Part shown: positions 2,157-53,972 of the stretch, piece by piece
How positions within the stretch are numbered: position 1 is the stretch's first letter
How the letters are laid out: each line of letters starts with the position of its first letter
From: Patescibacteria group bacterium
GTDB taxonomy: Bacteria; Patescibacteriota; Minisyncoccia; Portnoybacterales; UBA2143
Direction: 5' to 3'
DNA: 64,000 nt
NCBI GenBank assembly: GCA_018830295.1
Contig: JAHJSM010000001.1
Span: forward strand, 321,980 to 385,979
Translations under genes and position numbers: made by a program
The notes under the pieces: model-generated
What the model saw: the letters and a program-made list of their open reading frames with translations, nothing else
Told to the model about the DNA's origin: nothing
Database searches by the model: none

Positions 2157-3341
2157 ATGTTAGTTTTATCTTTTCAAAAAATTATTAACTTTGGGATTTA
2201 CTTGGTTGTTTTTTTAATTCCAACATACATTTTTTCTTTCAAAATTTGGCTTATTCCGACTAATCTTTTAGAAGCTCTTGTTAGTGTTTTGTTCCTCGCT
2301 TGGTTTATTGGAAATTTTAACAAAATACCTGAAATATCGCGCAGTATGTTTAAAAGTTCATTTTTCCCGCCGATTTTACTTATCTTTTTAGGCGCGAGCA
2401 TCTCAACTATTTTTTCGGATGATATTATCACAAGCGCTGGGATATGGAAGAGTTGGTTTATTGTTCCTTTGCTGTTTTTTGTTGTCGTTTTAAACGCGAT
2501 TAAAAATGGGAAACAGGTTCAAAAAATTATTTCATCCCTGTTCTTTTCTGGTTTTTGGGTCTCTTTAATCGCTCTTTTTTATTTTTTCAGTCATAATCTG
2601 ACTTATGATGGCCGATTGAAAGCATTTTACGAATCCCCCAACCACTTGGCGATGTATTTATCGCCTATTTTGATTTTATCTCTTTATTTATATTTTGTTT
2701 TTGATAAAAAAATTATTAAATTTTTCTTGTTTGCCGCTCACTGTTCATTACTTGTTGTTTTGTATTTAACTTATTCTTATGGCGCGTGGATTGGACTGAT
2801 CGCTTCTTTGTTTTTTCTTTTAGCGACGATAAAAAAACAGAAAAAGATTTTTTATTTAATAGGGATTATGTTTCTGATTGTCGCTTCTTTTTTCGCTTTT
2901 CAAATTAATAGCCAAAAATTTCAGGGAATGATTGATTTTTCTTATCCCTCTTTGTCTTCTCGTTTCGTAATCTGGCAAAGCGCTTGGGAGATAATAAAAG
3001 ACCATCCCTTTAATGGGATTGGTCCCGGACTATTTCAAGAATATTATTTGAAATACCAAGTAACCCTTGAACCCTATCTTGAATGGGCCGTTCCTCAGCC
3101 CCACAACCTCTTTCTGGCGTTCTGGCTCCAAACAGGGTTACTCGGCCTGCTCGGATTTATTTGGCTCTTATTTAGGTTCTTTAGAATAAAAATAAACTCA
3201 TTAGCCATTATTTTAATGGCGACGATGATTTGTGTTCTAATTCACGGATTAGTTGACACAACTTACTGGAAAAATGACTTGGCGGTTGTTTTTTGGCTGA
3301 TTATAGCTCTAAACTACAAAGCAATCCGTCTCTCTTATTAA
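2157..3341 (+). CDS. O-antigen ligase / Wzy_C-domain membrane protein, paralog 2
   Basis: Polytopic; motif ...PQPHNLFLAFWLQTGLLGLLGF... (H-N-x-aL/FL signature of Wzy_C); start codon immediately follows stop of previous gene. Confidence 0.6.
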   Translation: MLVLSFQKIINFGIYLVVFLIPTYIFSFKIWLIPTNLLEALVSVLFLAWFIGNFNKIPEISRSMFKSSFFPPILLIFLGASISTIFSDDIITSAGIWKSWFIVPLLFFVVVLNAIKNGKQVQKIISSLFFSGFWVSLIALFYFFSHNLTYDGRLKAFYESPNHLAMYLSPILILSLYLYFVFDKKIIKFFLFAAHCSLLVVLYLTYSYGAWIGLIASLFFLLATIKKQKKIFYLIGIMFLIVASFFAFQINSQKFQGMIDFSYPSLSSRFVIWQSAWEIIKDHPFNGIGPGLFQEYYLKYQVTLEPYLEWAVPQPHNLFLAFWLQTGLLGLLGFIWLLFRFFRIKINSLAIILMATMICVLIHGLVDTTYWKNDLAVVFWLIIALNYKAIRLSY

Positions 3342-27099: not shown

Positions 27100-27332
27100 T
27101 AGGTCTCGATTTCGTAATTAAAGGTCAGACCTTTCAAAACTGAAAAGGTCTGACATCACGAGTAGCGACATTTCTTAAGGTCGCGCTCGAGAGGTCGGAC
27201 CTTTGGAACCCGACGAAAGACTTTCTTAACTGCGCAAAATCAAGGTCAGACCTTCTGAGCGAAACCTTAAGAAAGGTCTCTACTCCGAATGTCTGACCTT
27301 GTCGCAGGATAAAGGTCTGACCTTTAATTAAA
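27100..27332. repeat. Family C MITE-like composite element (terminal inverted repeats TTAAAGGTCAGACCTTT / AAAGGTCTGACCTTTAA with internal modules)
   Basis: Contains GGTC(A/T)GACC cores several times plus module GAGTAGCGACATTTCTTAAGGTCGCGCTCG shared with copies at 31861, 33707, 44858. Confidence 0.8.
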
Positions 27333-30151: not shown

Positions 30152-31684
30152 CTACTTCGCGTATTCCACTGATCTTGTTTCTCTAATCACATTAACTTTA
30201 ATTTCCCCAGGGTACTTTAAGTCATGATGAATCTGTTCAGCGATATTTTTAGCTAACTTGTTCGCCGCGAGGTCGTCTATCTCTTCTGGATTAACGAAAA
30301 CGCGCACTTCTCTTCCGGCTTGGATTGCATAGACCTTTTTAACTCCAGGGAACGCTCCGGCGAGATCTTCCAATTCTTTCAGTCGTTTTAAATACGCCTC
30401 AAGGGTGTCTTTTCTGGCGCCTGGCCTGGCTCCGGAGATGGCGTCGGCGACTTGAACAATGATCGATTCCAAACTGGTGTAAGGATATTCCTCGTGGTGC
30501 GCTTGCATTGCTTCAATCACTTTTTCGTCCACATCAAATTTTTTGAGAATTTTTCTTCCGATCTCAACATGAGAACCCTGAATTTCATGGTCAACCGCTT
30601 TTCCAATATCGTGAAACAAACCCGCTTTTTTAGTCAAATCAACATTGGCGCCCAATTCTGAGGCGATCGCGCCTGCAATATGAGCCACTTCCAATGAGTG
30701 CAAAAGAATATTTTGTCCGTAACTTGTTCTAAATCTAAGCCGTCCTAAAAGTTTAATCAATTGCGGATTAATTCCCGCGACGCCGACATCATAGACAGTC
30801 GCCTCTCCCGCTTCAATAACTTTCTTATTGATTTCCTCCGAAGCGGCTTCTACCATTTCTTCAATGCGGCTTGGTTGAATTCTTCCGTCAAGAATTAGTT
30901 TTTCCAAAGCGATTTTAGCGATTTGACGGCGAACAGGGTCAAAGCCAGAGATGACAATCGCGCCGGGCGTATCATCAACTAAAATTTCCACGCCCGTGAG
31001 TTTTTCCAGCGTCTTAATATTTCGTCCCTCTTTTCCGATAATTCTTCCTTTCAAATCGTCGCTCGGCAAACGAACGGTTGAAGAAGTCGTTTCGCTTGAT
31101 TGCGAAGCGGCGTATCTTTGCATCGCCAAAGCGATGATTTTTTGCGCTTTCTTGTCTAATTCTTCTTTGCCTTCTTTTTCTAATTTACTCAATCGTTCTA
31201 AGAGCGCTTGTTGGTGTTCTTTTTCGGCGACAGCGAGAAGTTCTTCTTTCGCTTGGTCTTGCGAATATTGCGCGATTTTTTCTAACTTCTCTATTTGCTC
31301 TTGGCGTAATACATTGAGCCCTTCTTTAATTTTTTTAACCTTGCGGACTTTTGTTTTTAACTCGTCATATTTTTCCTCAAATTGGACGCCTTTTTGGTCC
31401 AAGTCCTGCTCTTTTCTCAATAACCGCTCTTCCATCCGAGTCAGTTGTTTTTGCCTGTCTCTTTCTTGCGCTTTGATTTCTTCAAGCACTTGGCCCGCTT
31501 TTTCTTTCGCTTGAAGTAGTGTTTCTTTCGCTTCGTCTTTCGCTTCGCTGATTAACTTATTTAGTTTTGACTCAATAGTCCCCGCCTGTTTTTTAGCAAT
31601 GGTCTGTCTGGTGTAATATCCCAAGATTGAGCCAAATGCTAAAGCGCCGATAAGTATAACGGCATCCAAAATTAAATTGTTCAT
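30152..31684 (-). CDS. rny: Ribonuclease Y
   Basis: N-terminal TM, coiled coil, KH domain (IGKEGRNIKTLEKLTGV), HD domain (HSLEVAHIAGAIASELG…FHDIGKA); rny-ymdB synteny as in Firmicutes. Confidence 0.9.
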   Translation of the reverse strand: MNNLILDAVILIGALAFGSILGYYTRQTIAKKQAGTIESKLNKLISEAKDEAKETLLQAKEKAGQVLEEIKAQERDRQKQLTRMEERLLRKEQDLDQKGVQFEEKYDELKTKVRKVKKIKEGLNVLRQEQIEKLEKIAQYSQDQAKEELLAVAEKEHQQALLERLSKLEKEGKEELDKKAQKIIALAMQRYAASQSSETTSSTVRLPSDDLKGRIIGKEGRNIKTLEKLTGVEILVDDTPGAIVISGFDPVRRQIAKIALEKLILDGRIQPSRIEEMVEAASEEINKKVIEAGEATVYDVGVAGINPQLIKLLGRLRFRTSYGQNILLHSLEVAHIAGAIASELGANVDLTKKAGLFHDIGKAVDHEIQGSHVEIGRKILKKFDVDEKVIEAMQAHHEEYPYTSLESIIVQVADAISGARPGARKDTLEAYLKRLKELEDLAGAFPGVKKVYAIQAGREVRVFVNPEEIDDLAANKLAKNIAEQIHHDLKYPGEIKVNVIRETRSVEYAK

Positions 31685-31860: not shown

Positions 31861-32062
31861 AAAAAGGTCCGACCTCTCAAGCGCGACCTTAAGAAATGTC
31901 GCTACTTGCGATGTCAGACCTTCTCGGTTCTAAAAGGTTTCTAAAAGGTCAGACCTTTCAAGACAACAACTCGTAACAGTTTATTTTCTCGTGACAAACT
32001 GATGGAAAGGTCTGACCTTTTATTTCTTTCTAAAGGTCGCGCTCATAGGTCGAACCTTTTCT
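31861..32062. repeat. Family C MITE-like composite element
   Basis: AAAAGGTCCGACC…AGCGCGACCTTAAGAAATGTCGCTACTTGCGATGTCAGACCTT…AAAAGGTCAGACCTTTC…GACAAACTGATGG…AAAGGTCTGACCTTTT. Confidence 0.8.
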
Positions 32063-32075
32063 TTTTCAATATTTT

Positions 32076-32106
32076 AGGGACAGTCCCTGTTGCGGGGACT
32101 GTCCCT
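32076..32106. repeat. Family B palindromic element
   Basis: AGGGACAGTCCC-tgttgcg-GGGACTGTCCCT. Confidence 0.85.
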
Positions 32107-32162
32107 AAAATATCCCCAAAATAAAAAGAACTGTCCTTTTACAGACAGTCCATTTTATTTAT

Positions 32163-33500: not shown

Positions 33501-33639
33501 AATAGTAAATATTTGATATTTGGGGGCAGCCCTCGATTAGTTAAAAAAATCCGTTTTGAAAAACGGATACTCTCCTCCCACTCCCATCCAAATCATCACT
33601 ATCTTATCACAACTCCAAATCCCTTGTCAAACGAAATTT

Positions 33640-33670
33640 GGGGACAGTCCCCGCAACAGGGACTGTCCCC
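33640..33670. repeat. Family B palindromic element
   Basis: GGGGACAGTCCCC-gcaaca-GGGACTGTCCCC. Confidence 0.85.
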
Positions 33671-33706
33671 AAATAACCCAAATGCCTTGACCTTTCGCCT
33701 GAAAGA

Positions 33707-33798
33707 AATTAAAGGTCAGACCTCTCAAGCGCGACCTTCGGAAATGTCGCTACTTGCGATGTCAGACCTTCTTGGTTCTTAAAGGTCTGACCTTTAAT
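33707..33798. repeat. Family C MITE-like element
   Basis: ATTAAAGGTCAGACC…AGCGCGACCTTCGGAAATGTCGCTACTTGCGATGTCAGACCTT…AAAGGTCTGACCTTTAAT. Confidence 0.8.
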
Positions 33799-33864
33799 TT
33801 CTTGACTGTCCCCAAATGCCTTGACCTTTCGCCTCGTTTTTTATATAATTTCAACTAGGAAATC

Positions 33865-33897
33865 GGGGACAGTCCCTCGCCGCGAGGGACTGTCCCC
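33865..33897. repeat. Family B palindromic element (identical to copy at 34222-34254)
   Basis: GGGGACAGTCCC-tcgccgcga-GGGACTGTCCCC. Confidence 0.9.
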
Positions 33898-34221: not shown

Positions 34222-34254
34222 GGGGACAGTCCCTCGCCGCGAGGGACTGTCCCC
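34222..34254. repeat. Family B palindromic element (identical to 33865-33897)
   Basis: GGGGACAGTCCC-tcgccgcga-GGGACTGTCCCC. Confidence 0.9.
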
Positions 34255-36382: not shown

Positions 36383-36410
36383 TTTTGACTATTGAAAGGC
36401 AAAAGAGAAA

Positions 36411-36493
36411 TTAAAGGTCAGACCTTCCCATCAGTTTGTCACTAAACAATAAGCAGTCGCGATAATGTCGTTTTGAAAGGTCTGACCTTTAAT
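36411..36493. repeat. Family C MITE-like element
   Basis: TTAAAGGTCAGACCTTCC-CATCAGTTTGTCAC-…AAGCAGTCGCGATAATGTCGTTTTG-AAAGGTCTGACCTTTAATT. Confidence 0.85.
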
Positions 36494-36595
36494 TCTCTTG
36501 CTATGTTTCTTTTTTATATCCAAATCTGAATTGCAGCCCCGCAATTCTGCGGGGCACTAATTTTTGAAACCAAATCAGAATTTGGACAAAAATTG

Positions 36596-37727: not shown

Positions 37728-39179
37728 TTATTTAACCCAATATTTGCCTTTCATCTCTGAGTCAACTTCTTCTTTTTTTTCTTTTATCTTTTTATCTCTC
37801 GTTTTTAATTCTTTGTCGGAGAGTTTGTTTAGTTCTTTGGCTATTTCGGAGAGTTTCTTTTTTGTGTTGATTTTTGGGTTTTCTAACGCTTCAGAGAGGA
37901 GGGCGTTAAGGATTAGTCCTAATTTTGGTCCGGGTTTGGTTTCTAAAATTTTCATTAAATCGTCCCCGTTGATTTTGAGCATCTTGACGGAGATAGGATC
38001 TTTGGAAACCTTTTCAATTAGATATTCTAAATGTCTTAATTTGTAAGGAACCGCCTTTGGGCATCCGCTTCCCAATCTATCAGTTATTCGCAATTTGAGC
38101 AAGTCCCCCATATTCTCGCGCCCAACCCGCCTCAAAAGCCGCCTTACGCCCGTTTCGCTCACCTCGTCCACGCCGTAAACAAACATGTGGTTGCGGACTA
38201 AATGCGCGACTTTTTCAATTGTTTTTTTGGGAAATCTCAATCGTTGGAGAATGTTGGCGGCGAATCGGGCGCCGACAATATCGTGGTTGTAAAAGGTGGA
38301 ATATTCCCCTTGACCTCTTTTTGTTTGCGGTTTGGCAATGTCATGCAAAAGAGCGGCGAGGCGGACTTCCAGCCCGTACTTTCTTTTTGCGCCGAATTTC
38401 AAAGCCAAAACGCAATGGCGATAAATGCTGTAAATGTGATGCCTGTTTTGCGCGACGCCAATCCCCTTTTCCAATTCTGGAATAATATATTTTAGCAGAC
38501 CTGTTTCTCGCAATAATTCAATCGCCTCTTCTGGTTCATCCGCCATAATCATTTTAATCAGTTCATCGCGGATTCGTTCTTTAGCGATTGCTTGAAGCCA
38601 GGCAGCGTTCTTTTTAATCGCTTCCAGCGTCTGGGTTTCAATTTGCCATTTTCCGGCGGGCGAACCCAACTCCGCCGTGAAACGGATGGCTCTCAACATT
38701 CTCAAGGCGTCTTCGCCAAATCTGTTGTCCGCCTTCCTTACGGCTTTAATAAGCCGTTTTTTAATGTCTTCTTGCCCGCCAAAAAGGTCAATCAATTCTC
38801 CTTTTTTATTTAAAGCGAGCGCGTTAATCGTGAAGTCGCGGCGCGAAAGGTCTTTTTCTACGCGGATGGTGAAACTGACTTTATCGGGATGTCGCTTGTC
38901 GGTGTATCTTTGTTCCGTTCGAAAAGTGGTGATTTCAACCTCTTTCAACGCCCTTTCCTCGCTTTCCGTCTTGACTGTGACTGTTCCAAATTTGTTCGCG
39001 TAAAAACTGTCAGGAAATATGCCTTGAATTTCTTCGGGCTTCGCTTTGGTTGTAATATCCCAATCCTTTGGCTTTTTGCCAAGCAGAATGTCGCGAACGC
39101 AGCCGCCCACCGCGTATGCCTCAAATCCCCCCTTTTCCAATTTCCCTAAAATATCTTTTATTTCCTTCGGAAGTTTCAT
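37728..39179 (-). CDS. cca: CCA-adding tRNA nucleotidyltransferase with C-terminal HD domain
   Basis: GGCVRDILLGKKPKDWDITT (PolB-type NTase motif), RRDFTINALA, HD domain (HHIYSIYRHC…LLHDIAKP). Confidence 0.8.
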   Translation of the reverse strand: MKLPKEIKDILGKLEKGGFEAYAVGGCVRDILLGKKPKDWDITTKAKPEEIQGIFPDSFYANKFGTVTVKTESEERALKEVEITTFRTEQRYTDKRHPDKVSFTIRVEKDLSRRDFTINALALNKKGELIDLFGGQEDIKKRLIKAVRKADNRFGEDALRMLRAIRFTAELGSPAGKWQIETQTLEAIKKNAAWLQAIAKERIRDELIKMIMADEPEEAIELLRETGLLKYIIPELEKGIGVAQNRHHIYSIYRHCVLALKFGAKRKYGLEVRLAALLHDIAKPQTKRGQGEYSTFYNHDIVGARFAANILQRLRFPKKTIEKVAHLVRNHMFVYGVDEVSETGVRRLLRRVGRENMGDLLKLRITDRLGSGCPKAVPYKLRHLEYLIEKVSKDPISVKMLKINGDDLMKILETKPGPKLGLILNALLSEALENPKINTKKKLSEIAKELNKLSDKELKTRDKKIKEKKEEVDSEMKGKYWVK

Positions 39180-39269
39180 GGTCTCATCATAACGCGATTA
39201 GATTTTTTCCGCAATCTATCCCTAGACAATTTGACCGAGGGGCGGTTTTGGTTTAGAGTGGTGGTAGAT

Positions 39270-39342
39270 GCGCCCGTAGCTCAACGGATAGAGTATCGCG
39301 CTTCGGACGCGAGGGTTGGGGGTTCGAGTCCCTCCGGGCGCA
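39270..39342 (+). tRNA. tRNA-Arg (anticodon TCG)
   Basis: Acceptor GCGCCCG/CGGGCGC, anticodon stem TCGCG/CGCGA, loop CTTCGGA. Confidence 0.7.
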
Positions 39343-39353
39343 CATAAACATTC

Positions 39354-39425
39354 GCGCTCATAGCTCAATGGTAGAGCAGTTGCCTCTTAAGCAATTGGTT
39401 CCAGGTTCAAATCCTGGTGGGCGCA
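39354..39425 (+). tRNA. tRNA-Lys (anticodon CTT)
   Basis: Acceptor GCGCTCA/TGGGCGC, anticodon loop CTCTTAA, T-arm CCAGG TTCAAAT CCTGG. Confidence 0.75.
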
Positions 39426-39472
39426 CAAGTTTTAATTTGCTTTTTTTTGTTTTGTCTGATAGAATAGGGGAT

Positions 39473-39742
39473 ATGTTAAAACCAAGTAAAAAGTCAAAAA
39501 TAATTGGCGATTATAAGACGCATGAGAATGATACTGGCTCTTCGGAGGTTCAGATTGCTATTCTCACTAAGCAGATTGAAGAACTCGCCAAGCATCTTAA
39601 GACGCATACCAAAGACAACCACTCTCGCAGAGGGCTTTTGAAAATGGTCGCCAAAAGAAAAAAACTTCTTGACTATTTAAAAAAAGAAAACGAAAAAAGT
39701 TATAAGAAGGTTACCAAAAAGTTGGGGCTGAAGACAAAATAA
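39473..39742 (+). CDS. rpsO: 30S ribosomal protein S15
   Basis: [69 protein letters not shown]; upstream part of ORF-track frame overlaps tRNA-Lys and is not coding. Confidence 0.85.
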
Positions 39743-40278
39743 TGCCTATTCTTAAACATAAAGAACAGAGGGTTGCTGTTTTAGTTGATGTTCAAAATAT
39801 GTATCACTCCGCCAAAAACCTTTACGGGGCGAGAGCGAACTTTAACGAGATTTTGAAGGCGGCGGTCGGGCAGAGGAAGTTGATTCGGGCGATCGCTTAC
39901 ACAACAAGAACGGAAACACCTGAAGAAAAAACCTTTTTTGACGCTTTGGAGAAGGCTGGTTTTGAGGTCAAAACAAAGGATTTGCAGATTTTTCCGGGCG
40001 GAATGAAAAAGGGGAATTGGGATGTTGATATCGTAATTGACGCGATTAAATTTTCTAACGCAGTTGACGCGATTGTTTTAGTGACAGGGGATGGCGATTT
40101 CGTGCCTTTAGTTGAATATCTTAAATTAACTCGTGGCGTTCAAACGGAAGTCATTGCTTTTGAGCGAAGCGCTTCCGCTAAATTAAAGGAGGCATCAGAC
40201 GATTTCATTGATTTGAGCGAGAATAAGGGCAAGTATTTAATCAGAAGCGGCGGCGGGAAGAAGAATATCAAAAAATAA
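39742..40278 (+). CDS. NYN-domain (LabA/DUF88-like) putative ribonuclease
   Basis: VAVLVDVQNMYHS…DVDIVIDAIK…IVLVTGDGDFVPLVEYLK, acidic residues in NYN/PIN-like arrangement; located between rpsO and pnp. Confidence 0.6.
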   Translation: MPILKHKEQRVAVLVDVQNMYHSAKNLYGARANFNEILKAAVGQRKLIRAIAYTTRTETPEEKTFFDALEKAGFEVKTKDLQIFPGGMKKGNWDVDIVIDAIKFSNAVDAIVLVTGDGDFVPLVEYLKLTRGVQTEVIAFERSASAKLKEASDDFIDLSENKGKYLIRSGGGKKNIKK

Positions 40279-43723: not shown

Positions 43724-44423
43724 AGTTAATATTAAAATAAAGAAAGGCGAATGTTCGCCGAACCAAATCGCGGATAATTTGAAAGTTGATTTAAGAGAAG
43801 ATCTAAACGCTAAAAAAAGACAGCCGTTCAAAAGGTGGCTGTTTTTGTTTATTGCTTTATTTTTGTTGGTCTTAATTTTTACTGTCTGCCAAAATACTTT
43901 TTTTTCCGATAAAACGTCTTTTAACCGTCTAATCCCCAAAGAAGCGGTTGTTTTTGGATTAATTGACCAGGCCTCGCTTTATAATCAAACAGCTCCCTTT
44001 TATGGGCTGTTAAAAGAAAGCAATTTTTACGGTCAAAACGCGCTTTCTAAAATGGGCGGATACTTCAATCAAGCGAATTTAGACATTCAAAATGACTTTC
44101 AGCCGCTTTTTAAGCAAGAAGCCGCTTTTATTCTGATGCCTTCTAATTCAGAAACATCTTTTCCTTTTGCTGTCATATTTAAGAAAAACCAGCCATCGTC
44201 CGAAGTAGAGCGAATTTTGTCTAAAATTGAACCAAAATTAAAAGAGGACTACAATTTTTCAACTGAAAAATACAGACAGATTAAAACGACATTTTTGCGG
44301 CCGATTTCCTCTGTTTCGGGCGCTTTGCCTGATTTATATGCCTACGCTCAAATAGATGGATATTTTATTATTTGCAACTCAAAAAAAACGATAGAAGCGT
44401 TTATTAACTCAATTATTGACTAA
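43710..44423 (+). CDS. Membrane-anchored hypothetical protein
   Basis: Basic N-terminus, single TM (WLFLFIALFLLVLIFTV), 14-nt overlap with upstream gene. Confidence 0.4.
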   Translation: MNMNKVNIKIKKGECSPNQIADNLKVDLREDLNAKKRQPFKRWLFLFIALFLLVLIFTVCQNTFFSDKTSFNRLIPKEAVVFGLIDQASLYNQTAPFYGLLKESNFYGQNALSKMGGYFNQANLDIQNDFQPLFKQEAAFILMPSNSETSFPFAVIFKKNQPSSEVERILSKIEPKLKEDYNFSTEKYRQIKTTFLRPISSVSGALPDLYAYAQIDGYFIICNSKKTIEAFINSIID

Positions 44424-44857
44424 TTAAGAGGTCTATGGGGACAAACTGTGGATAAGTAGGGGTTGACAGGGATAACTTTTAAATTGTAAAATAGTAGTAA
44501 GTTTTTTGCTGGCTATTGTCGGCTAGTTCTTTAATAAAAAAGTCCTCGGAGGGAGGACTAATAGACAGCAAAAGATAAATGTTTTTCTGTAAGAAAATAA
44601 AATATAAAAAAGATGATGGTTATCCTATAAGAGATGGAGGGTGATAGGGTAATATCTCTACATTATAGAAAAACAAGAGAGGATTTGATCCTAAAAAATA
44701 AAAAAAACGAGGCATCAAATCCTCTCTAATATATATCACATATTTAGAGAATAGTCAGTAGTTTTCATAAGTTAGCGGCCACTTGGTCGTTTTTTTTGTT
44801 TGATTGATTTGTCTCGGCGGTTGGGGTAAAATAAGAGAGATGGATTGGTAAGCAAAG

Positions 44858-44915
44858 AGGTTTGACATAAAGAGTAGCGACATTTCTTAAGGTCGCGCTC
44901 GTAGGTCAAACCTCG
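44858..44915. repeat. Family C variant element (TIR GAGGTTTGAC…GTCAAACCTC around module GTAGCGACATTTCTTAAGGTCGCGCTCG)
   Basis: Shares internal module with 27100 and 31861 copies. Confidence 0.7.
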
Positions 44916-44923
44916 TCAAGATT

Positions 44924-46171
44924 ATGGAAGATTATATTTGGATATTTATTTTAATAGGATTTTTTATACTTTGGGGTTTAATTTCATGGATTCGTGAGAC
45001 GATTTCCAATTCAAAAAAATATTTAGAATTAAAACCAAAGTTAGACAACTTGGAAAATTCAATAAAAGAACACGAATCAAAAATTGATAAAGATAGAGAG
45101 GAATGGAGATTAAAAGTAAAAACATGGAATGAAAAAATAAAGAACGATAAAAAAGAGATTCAAAAAATAGCCAGACAGAAATCAATGGGATTTCCTTGGC
45201 TCGCAGAAGCATATGCTGATTATTTTGCGTTAAAAGATGGCGAATTAGAAGAATATTTAAAGTATAAAAAACATCCAGCATATACTGCCGCAGAAAATGT
45301 AAAAATTATCAAAAACGCAAAAAGAGAATTAGTTAGAGAAAATAAAATAATAAGTTATAAGATTAATTATTTTGAAAAACTATTTCCTTGGTTGTCGGAA
45401 TTAATAGCAGAAAATGAAGATGAAGAAATTCCCGTTCGAATTGATGATAATCTGGAAAATAAAGACGACGATAAAGATAGGGTTAAAGATTTTCTTACAC
45501 AGGAAGAATATAGAAAGTTGCCCTCCGTTGAGAGAAATCAAATGGCATTAGATAGATATTTAAAAAATAGATATAAATCAAAATGGGCAATTGGGAGAGA
45601 TTACGAAATGTATGTTGGGTATTTATATGAACAAAAAGGGTATTCCGTTGAATATACGGGGATTATTGATGGTTTTGCAGATCTTGGCAGAGATGTCATT
45701 GCTACAAAAGACGATGAGGTATGTATTATTCAGTGCAAGCGATGGGCGTGTTGGAAAGAAATGCGTGAAAAACATATTTTTCAATTATTCGGAACAACAA
45801 TGGAATATTGGATTAAAAATTTTAAAAACCATAGAAAACCAAAAAATTTCGAAGAATTTGCCAAATTTTTAAACGAAAATAAACTCAGACCAATATTTTT
45901 TACTTCAACAAATTTATCTAATAAAGCAAAAGAAATGGCGAATGCATTAAGTGTTGAAATAATAGAAAACGAGCCACTTGGTGAATTCCCAAGAATTAAG
46001 TGTAATATAAATAATGATGAATTTGGCTCACAAACAAAGATATATCATTTACCCATAGATCAACAATATGATAGAACAATAATCGGTAATCGAGCCGGAG
46101 AATTTTACGCTTTTACTGTCAAAGAAGCGGAGGAAGCTGGTTTTAGAAGAGCATTTAAACATAGTTATTAG
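44924..46171 (+). CDS. TM + coiled-coil protein with Mrr-like PD-(D/E)xK restriction-endonuclease domain
   Basis: N-terminal TM (IWIFILIGFFILWGLISWI), long K/E coiled region, then YEMYVGYLYEQKGYSVEYTGIIDGFADLGRDVIATKDDEVCIIQCKRWA… matching Mrr_cat core (D…D/E-x-QCK). Confidence 0.5.
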   Translation: MEDYIWIFILIGFFILWGLISWIRETISNSKKYLELKPKLDNLENSIKEHESKIDKDREEWRLKVKTWNEKIKNDKKEIQKIARQKSMGFPWLAEAYADYFALKDGELEEYLKYKKHPAYTAAENVKIIKNAKRELVRENKIISYKINYFEKLFPWLSELIAENEDEEIPVRIDDNLENKDDDKDRVKDFLTQEEYRKLPSVERNQMALDRYLKNRYKSKWAIGRDYEMYVGYLYEQKGYSVEYTGIIDGFADLGRDVIATKDDEVCIIQCKRWACWKEMREKHIFQLFGTTMEYWIKNFKNHRKPKNFEEFAKFLNENKLRPIFFTSTNLSNKAKEMANALSVEIIENEPLGEFPRIKCNINNDEFGSQTKIYHLPIDQQYDRTIIGNRAGEFYAFTVKEAEEAGFRRAFKHSY

Positions 46172-46219
46172 AAATTTGAAATTAACAATTCGGATGAAAA
46201 AATAAATAAAAAATAATTT

Positions 46220-46249
46220 GGGGACTGTCCCCTCTTGGGGACAGTCCCC
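46220..46249. repeat. Family B palindromic element
   Basis: GGGGACTGTCCCC-tcttg-GGGACAGTCCCC. Confidence 0.85.
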
Positions 46250-46419
46250 CTTTGGGATAGGGGAAAAAGGCGTCAGGAATCTTTTTGGAACAGATAAAAA
46301 ATCATTCGGCTATCGGAAAGCCGAATAAGGGAATAAAATAGAAGATAAAGATTTGGCATTGTTGATTTTTCGCTTTTTTGTGATAAAATGGAAGGAGTGA
46401 AGTTATTAAAAATAAAGAT

Positions 46420-46956
46420 ATGGATAAAATTTCAATTAAATCGCAAAGACAGAAAAAGGGGAGTTGCCAGCCCCGCGGACCTAAGTCAAACAAAGAAGAG
46501 GCCGAGTTTGGGCCTGGGAAGGTTAATGTTTTAATGTGTAAGGATTGCGACGCGGTTTATTTCCGCAAGAGTTGGCATCATTGTTTGAAAGAAGGCAAGG
46601 AGATTTCAGAAGATAAGCCGGCGAGGATTGTCATCTGTCCGGCTTGCCAAATGATTAAGGACAAAATGTTTGAAGGTCAGATAATTTTAAAAAACGCGCC
46701 AGCGGATAAAAAAGGCGAAGTTTTAAACTTGGTCAAAAATGTTGGCAGACGCGCCTTTGAAAGAGATCCAATGGACAGGATTATATCTGTCAAGGAACAA
46801 GGCGGGGAGATAGAGATTTTGACGACCGAAAATCAATTGGCGGCCAGCATTGCCAAACAAATTAAACGGGCCTTCAAAGGGGAAACCGAGAAGATGAAAA
46901 TTTCATGGTCGCATCAGGAAAGCGTCGTGAGGATTGTTTTAAATTTCAAACTTTAA
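46420..46956 (+). CDS. Hypothetical zinc-ribbon protein
   Basis: CKDCDAVYF…ICPACQ four-Cys motif; 178 aa. Confidence 0.4.
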   Translation: MDKISIKSQRQKKGSCQPRGPKSNKEEAEFGPGKVNVLMCKDCDAVYFRKSWHHCLKEGKEISEDKPARIVICPACQMIKDKMFEGQIILKNAPADKKGEVLNLVKNVGRRAFERDPMDRIISVKEQGGEIEILTTENQLAASIAKQIKRAFKGETEKMKISWSHQESVVRIVLNFKL

Positions 46957-46978: not shown

Positions 46979-47344
46979 ATGGATAAAAAAACATTAGAAC
47001 AATTTAATAAGAAATTAGAGGCGGAGAAGAATAAATTAACGAAAGAGTTAAAAACATTCGCCCGAAAAGACCCAAAAATAAAAGGGAACTGGTTGACGCG
47101 TTTTCCGTTTTTTAACGCGAATCGTTCGCGTCCAGACGAAAGAGCGGAAGAAAGAGAGGACTACGAGAATCTTCTGCCTGTTGAGTACGCTCTTGAAACG
47201 CGCCTAAAAGACATTGATGAAGCGTTAGAGAGGATTAAGAAAGGAACTTATGGCAATTGCGCCAATTGCGGAAAAGAAATTCGAATTAAACGCCTTGAAA
47301 TAGTCCCTGAAGCAAAACTCTGCTCGGTCTGCGGAAGGAGGTAA
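46979..47344 (+). CDS. DksA/TraR-family C4 zinc-finger protein
   Basis: Coiled-coil N-terminus then CANCGKEI…CSVCGRR (C-x2-C-x17-C-x2-C). Confidence 0.7.
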   Translation: MDKKTLEQFNKKLEAEKNKLTKELKTFARKDPKIKGNWLTRFPFFNANRSRPDERAEEREDYENLLPVEYALETRLKDIDEALERIKKGTYGNCANCGKEIRIKRLEIVPEAKLCSVCGRR

Positions 47345-48388: not shown

Positions 48389-48410
48389 TAAGAAGTATCC
48401 ACAATTAAAA

Positions 48411-48494
48411 TTAAAGGTCAGACCTTTCCATCAGTTTGTTGCTAGATAATAAGCAGTCGTGATGATGTCGTTTTGAAAGGTCTGACCTTTAATT
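48411..48494. repeat. Family C MITE-like element
   Basis: Near-identical to 36411-36493 copy (CATCAGTTTGT, AAGCAGTCGTGATGATGTCGTTTTG modules). Confidence 0.85.
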
Positions 48495-48500
48495 TCTTAA

Positions 48501-48761
48501 CTATATTTTCTGAATGGCTTTTGTTAGGCGTGATTTTTTTCGGTTCGCCGTATTTTTTTTGATTACTCCCCGCTTGACCGCTTTATCAATAGCTTTGTAA
48601 GATTCTGGAAGAAGTTTAAGCGCTTCTTCTTTCTTTTTGTCTTTAATAAGCGTTTTGGCTTGCTTGATTAAAGATTTCATCTTATTGACGCGGCGTTGGT
48701 TAAAAACCCGCCTGCGGTTGCTCTGTAAGAGAGATTTTTTTGCTGATTTAATAATAGGCAT
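48501..48761 (-). CDS. rpsT: 30S ribosomal protein S20
   Basis: MPIIKSAKKSLLQSNRRRVFNQRR…; start set at MPIIKS. Confidence 0.8.
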   Translation of the reverse strand: MPIIKSAKKSLLQSNRRRVFNQRRVNKMKSLIKQAKTLIKDKKKEEALKLLPESYKAIDKAVKRGVIKKNTANRKKSRLTKAIQKI

Positions 48762-50543: not shown

Positions 50544-50632
50544 TTCGTAGGCGGAAGGATTTTAAAGAGCCAAAGCAAAATGCTTTTGGCTCTTTTATTT
50601 TCCGCCGAAAACTGGTATTGTGTTAATAATTT

Positions 50633-50662
50633 GGGGACTGTCCCCAAGAGGGGACAGTCCCC
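50633..50662. repeat. Family B palindromic element
   Basis: GGGGACTGTCCCC-aagag-GGGACAGTCCCC. Confidence 0.85.
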
Positions 50663-50677
50663 AAATAACAAATTATT

Positions 50678-51950: not shown

Positions 51951-53216
51951 ATGATTTTCTTAGAAAAAATATTTTTTTATCTTTTGGTTTTCTGTTTGCC
52001 CTTCCAAACGCGTAAAGTGATTTGGCAGTGGGGTGAGAATGGTTTTAATGAGTGGACGAGCGCTTTTCTTTATTTAACCGATATTTTAATTTTAATTCTT
52101 TTTCTTTTTTGGTTTTTGAGGAACAGAGAAAAAAGATTTTTTAAGAATGGGATTAAGATGGCGAGGGGAGCAGTCGCAAGAGGCGGTTTTTGGCTGATTG
52201 TTTTTTTGGCGATTGCTTTGGTTTCTCTGATTCAGGCGCGTAATATTCAATTAGGTTTCTATTCTTGGCTTAAACTTTTAGAATTTGCTCTTTTGTTTTT
52301 CTATCTAAAAAATAATTTTAAAGATTTATTTAATTTTACCCGCCTTTCCCAAGCGCTTGTAATGAGTGGGTTTGCTCAGTCGTTGATTGTTTTATGGCAA
52401 TACGCGGGGCAAAAAGGGCTGGAGATAAACGGCGTCGCTAAAATTATTGTTGATGGAGTGACACTTATGCGCCCTTACGGTTCTTTTCCTCACCCAAATG
52501 TTTTGGCGGCTTTTCTTTTACTCTGTATTTTTTGCCTCTATTCTCTCTGGCTCGCGAAAAAACGATCTTTTGTTTGGAATTGTCTTTTGATTATTGCTGG
52601 ATTTTTAATAATATTCGCTTTTTGGCTCTCTTTTTCGCGAACCGCCCTTTTAGTTTTTTTAATCACAATCCCTCTTTATTTTATCCTTCTATTAAAACAA
52701 AAAAGAAATATCCTTATCTTTCTCTTTATTGTTTTCTGCAGCGTTCTTTTTGTTTTTTTGGCCGGGGCGGAAGTTTCGTCTCGGTTCGCGATTTCAACAT
52801 CAGAGCAAGCGGTTGGATTGCGCGCTTTTTATAATGAAACGGCTCTTTCTATTATCAATCAATATCCTCTATTCGGAGTAGGTCAGGGAAATTTTGTTTG
52901 GGAAATCAGCAAAGCGCTTGATTTAATGTCTGCCTGGCTCTATCAGCCGGTCCATAATATCTATTTGCTTATCGCCAGCGAAACAGGGTTGTTCGGGTTG
53001 ATCGCTTTTCTTATGTTTCTTTTTTTGATTTTGTCTGAGATATTTGGGGACTGTCCCCGTTGCGGGGACAGTCCCCAAATAATAGGGCTTGTCATTGTTT
53101 TCTTCGGATTTCTATTTATGGCTCTATTTGACCACTACTTCTGGACAATTCAGCAAGGGCAGTTAATGTTTTGGTTGGTCTTGGGCGTTATCGCAAGCAA
53201 TTCGGCTATCCGATAG
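51951..53216 (+). CDS. O-antigen ligase / Wzy_C-domain membrane protein, paralog 3, carrying in-frame family B repeat
   Basis: Polytopic, PVHNIYLLIASETGLFGL Wzy_C motif; the repeat is translated as GDCPRCGDSPQ. Confidence 0.55.
   Translation: MIFLEKIFFYLLVFCLPFQTRKVIWQWGENGFNEWTSAFLYLTDILILILFLFWFLRNREKRFFKNGIKMARGAVARGGFWLIVFLAIALVSLIQARNIQLGFYSWLKLLEFALLFFYLKNNFKDLFNFTRLSQALVMSGFAQSLIVLWQYAGQKGLEINGVAKIIVDGVTLMRPYGSFPHPNVLAAFLLLCIFCLYSLWLAKKRSFVWNCLLIIAGFLIIFAFWLSFSRTALLVFLITIPLYFILLLKQKRNILIFLFIVFCSVLFVFLAGAEVSSRFAISTSEQAVGLRAFYNETALSIINQYPLFGVGQGNFVWEISKALDLMSAWLYQPVHNIYLLIASETGLFGLIAFLMFLFLILSEIFGDCPRCGDSPQIIGLVIVFFGFLFMALFDHYFWTIQQGQLMFWLVLGVIASNSAIR
53046..53076. repeat. Family B palindromic element inside CDS
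   Basis: GGGGACTGTCCCC-gttgc-GGGGACAGTCCCC. Confidence 0.85.
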
Positions 53217-53820: not shown

Positions 53821-53908
53821 TTCATTTCAACAAAAAGCCACTGCGAAAAAACGCGGCGGCTTTTTATATTATATGGATATGATATAATGAAATAAGATAT
53901 GCAATAAA

Positions 53909-53964
53909 TTAAAAGTCAGACCTTTCCATCAGTTTGTCACTTTTGAAAGGTCTGACCTTTAATT
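53909..53964. repeat. Family C MITE-like minimal element
   Basis: TTAAAAGTCAGACCTTTC-CATCAGTTTGTCAC-TTTTGAAAGGTCTGACCTTTAATT. Confidence 0.85.
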
Positions 53965-53972
53965 TATAACAC

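What the first reader, a model, noticed from the sequence alone, without database searches (positions are those of the whole stretch)
44430..46260. Repeat-bracketed island: structured non-coding region plus TM/coiled-coil protein fused to an Mrr-like nuclease domain
A 415-aa protein has an N-terminal TM helix, about 250 aa of K/E-rich coiled coil and a C-terminal region matching the Mrr_cat PD-(D/E)xK core (YEMYVGYLYEQKGYSVEYTGIIDGFADLGRDVIA…EVCIIQCKRW). It is preceded by a family C variant repeat (44858-44915) and followed by a family B palindrome (46220-46249). A 490-bp non-coding stretch lies upstream. Membrane-anchored Mrr-type nucleases are uncommon. This could be a defense (abortive infection or restriction) or DNA-uptake nuclease, which would make sense next to the pilus/T4SS genes elsewhere in the window; the function is inference.
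Basis: partly seen in the sequence, partly recalled or inferred. Interest (0 to 1): 0.55.

Follow-up and report, generated by a model that had tools for sequence, protein, structure and literature searches.

The report
Membrane-tethered Mrr-type nuclease, acquired gene
A horizontally acquired single gene in a Patescibacteria genome encodes a DNA-cutting enzyme predicted to be tethered to the inner face of the cell membrane; its relatives sit in the immunity slot of prophages, so it most likely defends against invading DNA in the manner of the recently described SNIPE nuclease, using different protein parts.

Summary
ORF 44924-46171 (+) encodes 415 aa: an N-terminal TM helix, a long helix, a conserved helical module, an acidic linker, an Mrr_cat PD-(D/E)xK core (E228, D257, Q270-x-K272 invariant in 51 diverse relatives) and a small C-terminal 'sunset'-like domain.

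The interpretation needs correcting in two places.
- The upstream "structured non-coding region" is not part of the island. It is an ancestral ncRNA gene of about 300 nt with its own promoter and terminator. It is conserved with covariation in 8 related genomes and matches no Rfam family.
- The gene is a ~1.5-kb insertion (~44801-46298). Five syntenic relatives lack it. Two others hold different cargo at the same site: a type III Mod methylase and an SDH protease.

The protein family is large, uncharacterised and spread across phyla at 65-86% identity. It keeps ~30% GC and is under strong purifying selection. In 79 IMG/VR prophage loci, distant relatives lie between the cI-type repressor and the integrase.

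Best reading: a solitary, cytoplasm-facing, membrane-tethered defence endonuclease. It is an analogue of SNIPE, not a homologue. A DNA-uptake role is disfavoured. Function remains an inference.

The parts
44924..46171 (+). Gene for the 415-aa membrane-tethered Mrr-type nuclease (stop codon included)
   Evidence: ORF; 100% identical protein annotated 'restriction endonuclease' in a Patescibacteria MAG; dN/dS 0.02-0.16 against 17 homologues
44930..44995 (+). N-terminal transmembrane helix (residues 3-24); acidic N-terminus MED, K/R-rich C-terminal side, so N-out and bulk in the cytoplasm (predicted)
   Evidence: Hydropathy scan. 112 of 143 full-length family representatives have an N-terminal TM segment; 108 of those have more K/R after it than before it.
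44996..45181 (+). K/E-rich long helix (stalk, to residue 86); poorly conserved and variable in length across the family
   Evidence: AF2 helix 2-86. Columns are unalignable and lengths range 380-680 aa. Occasional DivIC/FtsB-like, RNase Y-like or SMC-like weak hits in members.
45182..45421 (+). Conserved helical module (residues ~87-166; motifs GFPWLA, HPA, YYE-LFPWL); no Pfam family; tandemly duplicated in 587-607-aa members
   Evidence: Alignment A1; AF2 helices 91-114, 120-153 and 155-159; duplication in P0002/P0004/P0017; no DUF4041 hit in 51 members
45422..45478 (+). Acidic, disordered linker (residues ~167-185)
   Evidence: pLDDT below 50 for residues 167-182; acid-rich but variable in the alignment
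45479..45964 (+). Pre-nuclease helices plus PD-(D/E)xK (Mrr_cat) catalytic core, residues 186-347. Catalytic E228 (45605-45607), D257 (45692-45694), Q270 (45731-45733), K272 (45737-45739).
   Evidence: Pfam PF04471 E=1.6e-9. E228, D253, D257, Q270 and K272 are invariant in 51 sequences of 34-77% identity. Foldseek hits: AF1548 (1y88, E=1.5e-4), MspJI, Cdn1, EndoMS/NucS, AspBHI, Hjc.
45965..46168 (+). C-terminal small beta-rich domain (residues ~348-415), 'sunset'-like; invariant K359, C360, H375, P377, D379, Y382, D383, R408, R409
   Evidence: NCBIfam NF051437 E=9.4e-6, 25.6 bits, just under the 27-bit cut-off; 46 of 51 members match at E<=0.01; no solved structure found by sequence
44804..44832 (+). 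Promoter-like site (TTGATT-17-TAAAAT) upstream of the nuclease gene. The ~45 bp after the ncRNA terminator, including this site, is shared with relative L118, where it precedes a different cargo gene.
44858..44915 (.). Family C dispersed repeat copy (hairpin-forming) in the 5' leader of the gene; lies inside the inserted segment
   Evidence: Other copies at 27116-27204, 27241-27316, 31863-31938 and 33711-33786.
46220..46249 (.). Family B GC-rich palindrome (GGGGACTGTCCCC...GGGGACAGTCCCC), probably a bidirectional terminator; lies inside the inserted segment
   Evidence: Two public assemblies of the same genome break at or near it.
44801..46298 (.). Approximate extent of the insertion relative to the empty site of syntenic relative L114
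   Evidence: In L114 the hairpin and dksA-type promoter that correspond to window 46299-46392 begin 4 nt after the ncRNA terminator. Empty sites also occur in L115, L116, L119 and L033.
44463..44800 (+). NOT part of the island: ancestral ncRNA gene. Promoter TTGACA-18-TAAAAT at 44463-44492; RNA at ~44493-44797; terminator hairpin at 44774-44791 plus T-run.
   Evidence: Conserved in 8 relatives (alignments A2/A3). 73 consensus pairs, 26 with compensatory changes. 90.8% of cells paired against 44-53% for slid controls; 0 of 500 shuffles reach this. No Rfam match.

Best explanation
The gene is a horizontally acquired, solitary accessory gene. Its product is predicted to be anchored in the cytoplasmic membrane by one N-terminal helix, with everything else in the cytoplasm. 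The cytoplasmic part consists of a variable helical stalk, a conserved helical module, an acidic linker, an active Mrr-type PD-(D/E)xK DNA endonuclease and a small C-terminal domain.

Its most likely role is defence against invading DNA, that is phages or other mobile elements. The membrane tether would keep the nuclease away from the chromosome and place it where foreign DNA enters the cell. Entering DNA would then be cut at or soon after entry, which is the logic shown experimentally for SNIPE. Prophages carry relatives in the repressor-integrase slot, presumably as superinfection immunity.

Shown here: architecture, intact catalytic residues, nuclease fold, purifying selection, insertion against empty sites, foreign composition, cross-phylum spread, prophage slot, lack of a partner gene. 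Inferred: topology (positive-inside rule), DNA as substrate, defence function, and the entry-site mechanism.

Of the 0.55 confidence given to 'defence nuclease', roughly 0.3-0.35 falls on the specific SNIPE-like entry-interception mechanism.
For: Nuclease:
- Mrr_cat is above the Pfam threshold.
- E228, D257 and Q270-x-K272 are invariant across 51 members.
- The confident AF2 model matches AF1548, MspJI, AspBHI, EndoMS and Hjc.
- dN/dS is 0.02-0.16.

Membrane tether facing the cytoplasm:
- TM at residues 3-24.
- 112 of 143 representatives have an N-terminal TM; 108 of those show a K/R excess after it.

Accessory and acquired:
- Absent at the syntenic site in L114, L115, L116, L119 and L033.
- Gene GC is 0.28-0.35 in 17 of 20 hosts whose flanks are 0.30-0.46.
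- Homologues of 65-86% identity occur in Patescibacteria, Gammaproteobacteria, Desulfobacterales, Planctomycetota, Omnitrophota and Elusimicrobia, with no shared neighbours.

Defence context:
- The same hotspot holds a type III RM Mod methylase in L117 (PADLOC MTase_III, 4e-102).
- Fic/DOC genes flank the gene in 3 loci, and a weak TIR-like neighbour occurs in one.
- The Spartinivicinus copy is the terminal gene of an IMG/VR-called P2-like prophage.
- In 79 prophage loci, a cI-type repressor lies within 2 genes upstream on the same strand in 51, an integrase lies downstream in 41, and both occur in 36. Abi_2 or ImmA genes are sometimes interleaved.

Parallel with SNIPE (PMC13190303):
- N-terminal TM with a cytoplasmic bulk.
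- A hypervariable N-terminal region with FtsB/DivIVA-like coiled coils.
- A conserved middle module and the most-conserved C-terminal nuclease.
- A minority of members lack a TM.
Against: - No experiment exists for any family member. I found no paper on the family.
- There is no hit to any PADLOC model, so there is no homology-based link to a validated defence system.
- The prophage-slot evidence comes from relatives of only 36-45% identity. The window copy itself sits among housekeeping genes with no prophage nearby.
- Topology is predicted only by a crude hydropathy and K/R count.
- No methyltransferase or other partner lies in the window. A non-specific nuclease would therefore need some other self/non-self control, which is unknown here.
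- A cytoplasm-facing membrane nuclease in a nucleotide-scavenging CPR bacterium could also process imported DNA.
Confidence: 0.55

Rival explanations
1. Abortive-infection or toxin effector. The tether and the acidic linker keep the nuclease inactive. Infection, such as membrane perturbation or proteolysis, releases or activates it to degrade the host's own DNA as well as phage DNA, killing the cell.
For: Same contextual evidence as for defence. Abi_2 genes lie next to some prophage copies. A SNIPE variant lacking its TM is toxic through chromosome cleavage, which shows that such nucleases can kill. The disordered acidic linker could be a cleavage site or an autoinhibitory DNA mimic (inference).
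Against: There is no partner sensor, antitoxin or protease in the window or conserved across loci. Nothing here distinguishes this reading from direct defence.
Confidence: 0.17
2. A membrane-tethered type IV (modification-dependent) restriction enzyme in the strict Mrr sense. It would recognise modified foreign DNA through the C-terminal or pre-nuclease domains.
For: The catalytic domain belongs to Mrr_cat and Mrr_cat_2. The best structural matches include the modification-dependent enzymes MspJI and AspBHI. The gene is solitary with no cognate methylase, as expected for type IV.
Against: The N-terminal Mrr_N-type DNA-reading domain is absent, and its place is taken by a TM helix and a stalk. 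No SRA or winged-helix reader was detected. Membrane tethering has no known role in type IV enzymes.
Confidence: 0.1
3. A selfish nuclease gene, either homing-endonuclease-like or the transposase of a minimal element, that spreads by cutting target sites. This would explain its cross-phylum spread as a lone ORF.
For: It occurs as a lone ORF in unrelated contexts in many phyla, at high identity and with retained AT-rich composition. Some copies are decayed or truncated: L028 is frameshifted, and L030 and L031 are partial.
Against: No terminal inverted repeats or target duplications travel with the ORF, and DNA similarity ends at the ORF. dS is about 1 or saturated, so that test is weak. There is one copy in the window. 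A TM anchor is unexplained for a homing enzyme. In prophages the gene keeps a fixed regulatory slot rather than sitting at random sites.
Confidence: 0.05
4. A cellular DNA-processing enzyme: a DNA-uptake or competence nuclease, nucleotide salvage of imported DNA, or a membrane-associated junction resolvase.
For: CPR bacteria depend on imported nucleic acids (general knowledge). The window carries type IV pilus genes. Hjc-type resolvases are among the structural matches.
Against: Five syntenic relatives lack the gene. It has foreign GC. There is no linkage to pilus or competence genes in any of 24 loci. The predicted topology is cytoplasmic, so it is not an extracellular EndA/NucA type. It is common in prophage lysogeny modules.
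Confidence: 0.05

Closest known systems
SNIPE / PD-lambda-1 (Saxton et al., Nature 2026, PMC13190303)
   Same: Single-gene system. N-terminal membrane anchor with the rest in the cytoplasm. Hypervariable, coiled-coil-like N-terminal region. Conserved middle module. The C-terminal nuclease is the most conserved part. A minority of members lack a TM. Wide and patchy phylogenetic spread.
   Different: The nuclease is PD-(D/E)xK (Mrr_cat), not GIY-YIG. No DUF4041 is detected in 51 members. There is no hit to the PADLOC PD-Lambda-1 model or any other PADLOC model. This family has an extra C-terminal 'sunset'-like domain and an acidic linker. No functional data exist.
E. coli Mrr and other Mrr_cat type IV restriction enzymes; MspJI/AspBHI
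   Same: Same catalytic domain family and motif (E...D...QxK). Solitary gene without a methylase.
   Different: Lacks the N-terminal DNA-reading domain (Mrr_N, or SRA-like in MspJI). Has a TM anchor, a stalk and a helical module instead. Modification dependence is unknown.
Prophage superinfection-exclusion genes of the int-sie-cI slot (e.g. lactococcal Sie2009, S. thermophilus Ltp; from general knowledge)
   Same: Distant relatives lie between the cI-type repressor and the integrase, co-oriented with both. They are membrane-anchored.
   Different: Sie and Ltp are small non-enzymatic proteins that act outside or within the membrane to block injection. This protein carries a cytoplasmic nuclease. 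The window copy is not in a prophage.
RNase Y (architecture only)
   Same: N-terminal TM helix, long coiled coil and a C-terminal nuclease.
   Different: RNase Y has KH and HD domains and is a housekeeping RNase. This genome has its own RNase Y at 30152-31684.

Membership tests
PD-(D/E)xK superfamily, Pfam Mrr_cat (PF04471) | Profile match above the curated threshold | tested here: met
   38.3 bits against a cut-off of 21, E=1.6e-9, residues 225-294. 45 of 51 family members match Mrr_cat and 46 of 51 match Mrr_cat_2 at E<=1.
PD-(D/E)xK superfamily, Pfam Mrr_cat (PF04471) | Catalytic acidic residues and lysine (E ... D ... (E/Q)xK) conserved | tested here: met
   E228, D253, D257, Q270 and K272 are invariant in 51 sequences of 34-77% identity.
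PD-(D/E)xK superfamily, Pfam Mrr_cat (PF04471) | Restriction-endonuclease-like alpha/beta fold | tested here: met
   AF2 model with pLDDT 88.3. Foldseek hits to 1y88 (E=1.5e-4), MspJI, AspBHI, EndoMS and Hjc.
PD-(D/E)xK superfamily, Pfam Mrr_cat (PF04471) | Metal-dependent nuclease activity | not testable with these tools
   Needs biochemistry.
Mrr-type type IV restriction enzyme | N-terminal DNA-binding/modification-reading domain (Mrr_N winged helix) | tested here: not met
   No Pfam hit N-terminal of residue 225 other than a chance-level DUF5089 match. The N-terminus is a TM helix followed by helices.
Mrr-type type IV restriction enzyme | Cleavage depends on DNA modification | not testable with these tools
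   Needs assays.
SNIPE (PD-lambda-1) | N-terminal membrane anchor, remainder cytoplasmic | tested here: met
   By prediction only. TM at residues 3-24; 112 of 143 representatives have a TM; 108 of 112 have a K/R excess after it.
SNIPE (PD-lambda-1) | DUF4041 middle domain | tested here: not met
   No DUF4041 hit in any of 51 members at E<=1. A profile-profile or structural comparison could not be run.
SNIPE (PD-lambda-1) | GIY-YIG (T5orf172) nuclease domain | tested here: not met
   The nuclease is Mrr_cat. No PADLOC model matches.
SNIPE (PD-lambda-1) | Cleaves phage DNA during injection; interacts with tape-measure protein | not testable with these tools
   Needs experiments.
Prophage lysogeny-module accessory (sie-slot) gene | Located between cI-type repressor and integrase, co-oriented | tested here: inconclusive
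   Met for distant relatives: among 79 IMG/VR loci, 51 have the repressor, 41 the integrase and 36 both. Not met for the window copy, which sits in a chromosomal hotspot.
NCBIfam 'sunset' domain (NF051437) | Profile match above the curated threshold | tested here: inconclusive
   25.6 bits against a cut-off of 27, E=9.4e-6. 46 of 51 members match at E<=0.01.
Any Rfam family (for the upstream ncRNA) | Covariance-model match | tested here: not met
   Nothing relevant at E<=10 in window 44350-46500, nor at E<=1 in five relatives.

The most novel reading that the evidence does not exclude
This family is a second, independently assembled class of membrane-tethered 'entry-interception' nucleases. 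It would be a PD-(D/E)xK counterpart of SNIPE that tells self from non-self by location rather than by sequence or modification. It is carried both by prophages, as superinfection immunity, and by chromosomal hotspots. It is unusually mobile across phyla, including the small-genome Patescibacteria.
Probability: 0.3. Interest if true: 0.75.

Novelty: new variant of a known kind. Interest (0 to 1): 0.6.

Why it matters
- If the family works as proposed, spatial self/non-self discrimination by membrane-bound nucleases is a convergent and general strategy, not a peculiarity of one GIY-YIG family.
- It would add a large, unannotated single-gene family to defence catalogues. The family has about 850 clusters at 50% identity with E<1e-30 and 3261 clusters at 90%. 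These are currently labelled only 'restriction endonuclease'.
- It would also give Patescibacteria a compact single-gene defence that fits their minimal genomes.
- The family is directly testable: it is a single gene with clear catalytic residues, a removable anchor and prophage-borne relatives.
- Separately, the neighbouring ~300-nt RNA is a well-supported, unclassified structured RNA of this lineage.

Tried and rejected
- PADLOC: no hit.
- PDB sequence searches with the protein, the family profile and a C-terminal-domain profile: only chance or coiled-coil hits.
- INPHARED isolated phages: no hit. Plasmids: only 4 Hymenobacter plasmids at 41-44% identity.
- Conserved neighbours: none across 24 genomic loci. 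An apparent split Fic gene in L013 proved to be two separate Fic genes.
- I first read 'DNA similarity stops exactly at the ORF ends' as evidence for an ORF-sized mobile unit. I rejected this because dS is about 1 or saturated, so neutral flanks would be unalignable anyway.
- Short contigs around the gene reflect assembly breaks at the local repeats, not multi-copy status.
- RNase P, 6S, SRP and tmRNA identities for the upstream RNA: no Rfam or ARAGORN support.
- A DnaA-box cluster or oriC at the locus: only one perfect box there.
- A SNIPE protein sequence for direct profile comparison was not available in the paper or its supplements.
- Literature searches found no description of this family.
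Full report
**What is there**

The window comes from a Patescibacteria MAG. The identical protein is on a 744-kb contig and in GCA_018820055.1. ORF 44924-46171 (+) encodes 415 aa. Pfam places Mrr_cat at residues 225-294 (E=1.6e-9, 38.3 bits, cut-off 21). NCBIfam places a 'sunset' domain at residues 360-410, just under its cut-off. PADLOC has nothing.

An AlphaFold2 model built on 51 diverse relatives is confident (mean pLDDT 88.3). It shows these parts:
- one helix over residues 2-86, whose first ~22 residues are hydrophobic;
- a helical module at 91-159;
- a disordered acidic linker at 167-182;
- an alpha/beta core at 220-347;
- a small beta-rich domain at 358-404.

Foldseek against the PDB returns AF1548, MspJI, Cdn1, EndoMS/NucS, AspBHI and Hjc. 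These are Mrr/Hjc-type PD-(D/E)xK nucleases. In the 51-sequence alignment (34-77% identity to the query), E228, D253, D257, Q270 and K272 are invariant. So are K359, C360, H375, P377, D379, Y382, D383, R408 and R409 in the C-terminal domain.

**Repeats and composition**

The family C copy (44858-44915) and the family B palindrome (46220-46249) are real. Both belong to families scattered over many intergenic regions of this window. They are not ends that travel with the gene. The gene is the most AT-rich kilobase of the window: GC 0.297 and GC3 0.214, against 0.397 overall.

**The upstream non-coding region is a separate, ancestral RNA gene**

I fetched syntenic relatives through the upstream 237-aa neighbour. 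All eight share the same element downstream of that gene:
- a near-consensus promoter (TTGACA-18-TAAAAT, window 44463-44492);
- a 305-405-nt transcribed region;
- a terminator.

RNAalifold gives 73 pairs, 26 of them with compensatory changes. In that structure 90.8% of cells pair, against 44-53% when partners are slid, and 0 of 500 shuffles reach the observed values. No Rfam family matches in the window or in five relatives. The RNA is present in genomes that lack the nuclease gene, so it is not part of the island. The window copy lacks a ~55-nt 5' hairpin that six relatives have.

**The gene is an insertion in a variable hotspot**

Relatives L114, L115, L116, L119 and L033 keep the order pnp - 395-aa - 237-aa - ncRNA - dksA-like - LysM/CHAP - rpsT - ruvA. 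They have no nuclease gene.

In L114, the hairpin and dksA-type promoter that match window 46299-46392 start 4 nt after the ncRNA terminator. This places the insertion at about 44801-46298. At the same site L117 carries a type III RM Mod methylase (PADLOC MTase_III, 4e-102), and L118 carries an SDH/ClpP-like protease. L118 shares with the window the ~45 bp after the terminator, including a promoter-like site, and then diverges.

The window holds no methyltransferase. It holds no PADLOC system apart from a UvrD-like cross-hit.

**The family**

The word-indexed search finds 3261 clusters at 90% identity. The exhaustive search finds 1967 clusters at 50% identity, 846 of them with E<1e-30.

Homologues of 65-86% identity occur in many Patescibacteria. 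They also occur in a complete Spartinivicinus ruber chromosome, other Pseudomonadota, Desulfobacterales, Planctomycetota/Scalindua, Omnitrophota and Elusimicrobia. Every one sits in a different neighbourhood. In most hosts the gene keeps ~30-33% GC while the flanks are 36-46%.

dN/dS against 17 homologues is 0.02-0.16, with dS about 1 or saturated. The protein is therefore under strong constraint, and the transfers are not very recent. This also explains why DNA similarity stops at the ORF ends. That pattern says nothing about a mobile unit.

Conservation starts at about residue 85. The N-terminal ~85 residues vary in sequence and length. Some members of 587-607 aa have duplicated the stalk plus helical module. 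Of 143 full-length representatives, 112 have an N-terminal TM segment, and 108 of these have more K/R after it than before it. By the positive-inside rule, the nuclease faces the cytoplasm.

**Prophage context**

Isolated-phage genomes have no hit, but 155 IMG/VR contigs do. Across 79 loci:
- an HTH_3/Phage_CI_repr repressor lies within two genes upstream on the same strand in 51;
- a tyrosine or large serine integrase lies within five genes downstream in 41;
- both occur in 36.

ImmA/IrrE or Abi_2 genes are sometimes interleaved. This is the slot that temperate phages of Firmicutes use for superinfection-exclusion genes (general knowledge). The one close viral hit (78% identity) is the Spartinivicinus copy, which is the last gene of an IMG/VR-called P2-like prophage.

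**Mechanism**

The closest functional precedent is SNIPE (PMC13190303). SNIPE is a single protein with an N-terminal TM, a cytoplasmic bulk, a hypervariable N-terminal region with FtsB/DivIVA-like coiled coils, a middle DUF4041 and a C-terminal GIY-YIG nuclease. It cuts phage DNA during injection and is toxic when untethered.

The present family has the same layout and the same conservation gradient. Its parts differ. The nuclease is Mrr_cat. No DUF4041 is found in 51 members. No PADLOC model matches. It has an extra 'sunset'-like C-terminal domain. I therefore class it as an analogue of SNIPE, not a member.

I favour a defence role (0.55). The specific entry-interception mechanism is the leading sub-hypothesis at about 0.3. 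Rivals, in order, are:
- an abortive-infection effector;
- a true modification-dependent type IV enzyme;
- a selfish nuclease gene;
- a cellular DNA-uptake or repair enzyme, disfavoured by the absence from sister genomes, the foreign composition, the predicted cytoplasmic topology and the lack of linkage to pilus or competence genes.

**Limits**

- No family member has been tested, and I found no paper on the family.
- Topology rests on a simple hydropathy and charge count.
- The prophage-slot evidence comes from relatives of 36-45% identity.

Noticed in passing
window 44463-44800 (+); relatives L114:5632-6029, L115:2933-3319, L116:1960-2394, L117:5763-6150, L118:2054-2477, L119:5722-6083, L033:1607-1983: Conserved, unclassified structured ncRNA (~305-405 nt) with its own near-consensus promoter and terminator. 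26 of 73 consensus pairs show compensatory changes, and no Rfam family matches. The window copy lacks a ~55-nt 5' hairpin present in six relatives. One hairpin loop reads GGAGG(G) in most copies.
   Followed up: yes
window 44447-44455 (-): A perfect DnaA-box sequence (TTATCCACA) sits just upstream of the ncRNA promoter and is conserved in 7 of 8 relatives. It is not part of a box cluster, so it is probably regulatory rather than an origin.
   Followed up: partly
window ~44801-46298; L117:6531-8758; L118:2550-3419: The gap between the ncRNA terminator and the dksA-type promoter is a cargo hotspot in this lineage. It holds the nuclease here, a type III Mod methylase in L117 and an SDH/ClpP-like protease in L118. 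It is empty in five relatives.
   Followed up: yes
window 46420-46956 (+): A 178-aa NMD3-family ORF lies between the dksA-type promoter (46362-46389) and the dksA-like gene (46979-47344). It is absent from all syntenic relatives, so it looks like a second, separate insertion.
   Followed up: partly
window 39432; L032:84-1335: A strain-level relative (97-99% DNA identity) has a 1.25-kb insertion directly after tRNA-Lys that encodes a 380-aa AAA-type ATPase-like ORF.
   Followed up: partly
window ~39000-40000: Cumulative GC skew reaches its minimum here, and gene orientation switches from mostly minus to mostly plus. This fits a replication origin or terminus nearby.
   Followed up: no
window 15921-53968 (many sites, e.g. 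27116-27316, 31863-32112, 33633-33897, 34222-34254, 36408-36508, 48408-48508, 50625-50668, 53038-53096, 53906-53972): Several families of short dispersed intergenic repeats occur: GGGGACWGTCCCC palindromes, AAAGGTCAGACCTTT units and a ~76-nt composite element. They often lie next to tRNA genes. Public assemblies of this genome break at them.
   Followed up: partly
proteins P0002, P0004, P0017 (587-607 aa): Some family members carry a tandem duplication of the stalk plus the conserved helical module (the GFPWLA...LFPWL motif appears twice). This lengthens the tether.
   Followed up: partly
L013:13-1002 and 2622-3182; L012:5917-7017; L031:4773-5927: Fic/DOC-family genes directly flank the nuclease gene in three unrelated Patescibacteria loci.
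   Followed up: partly
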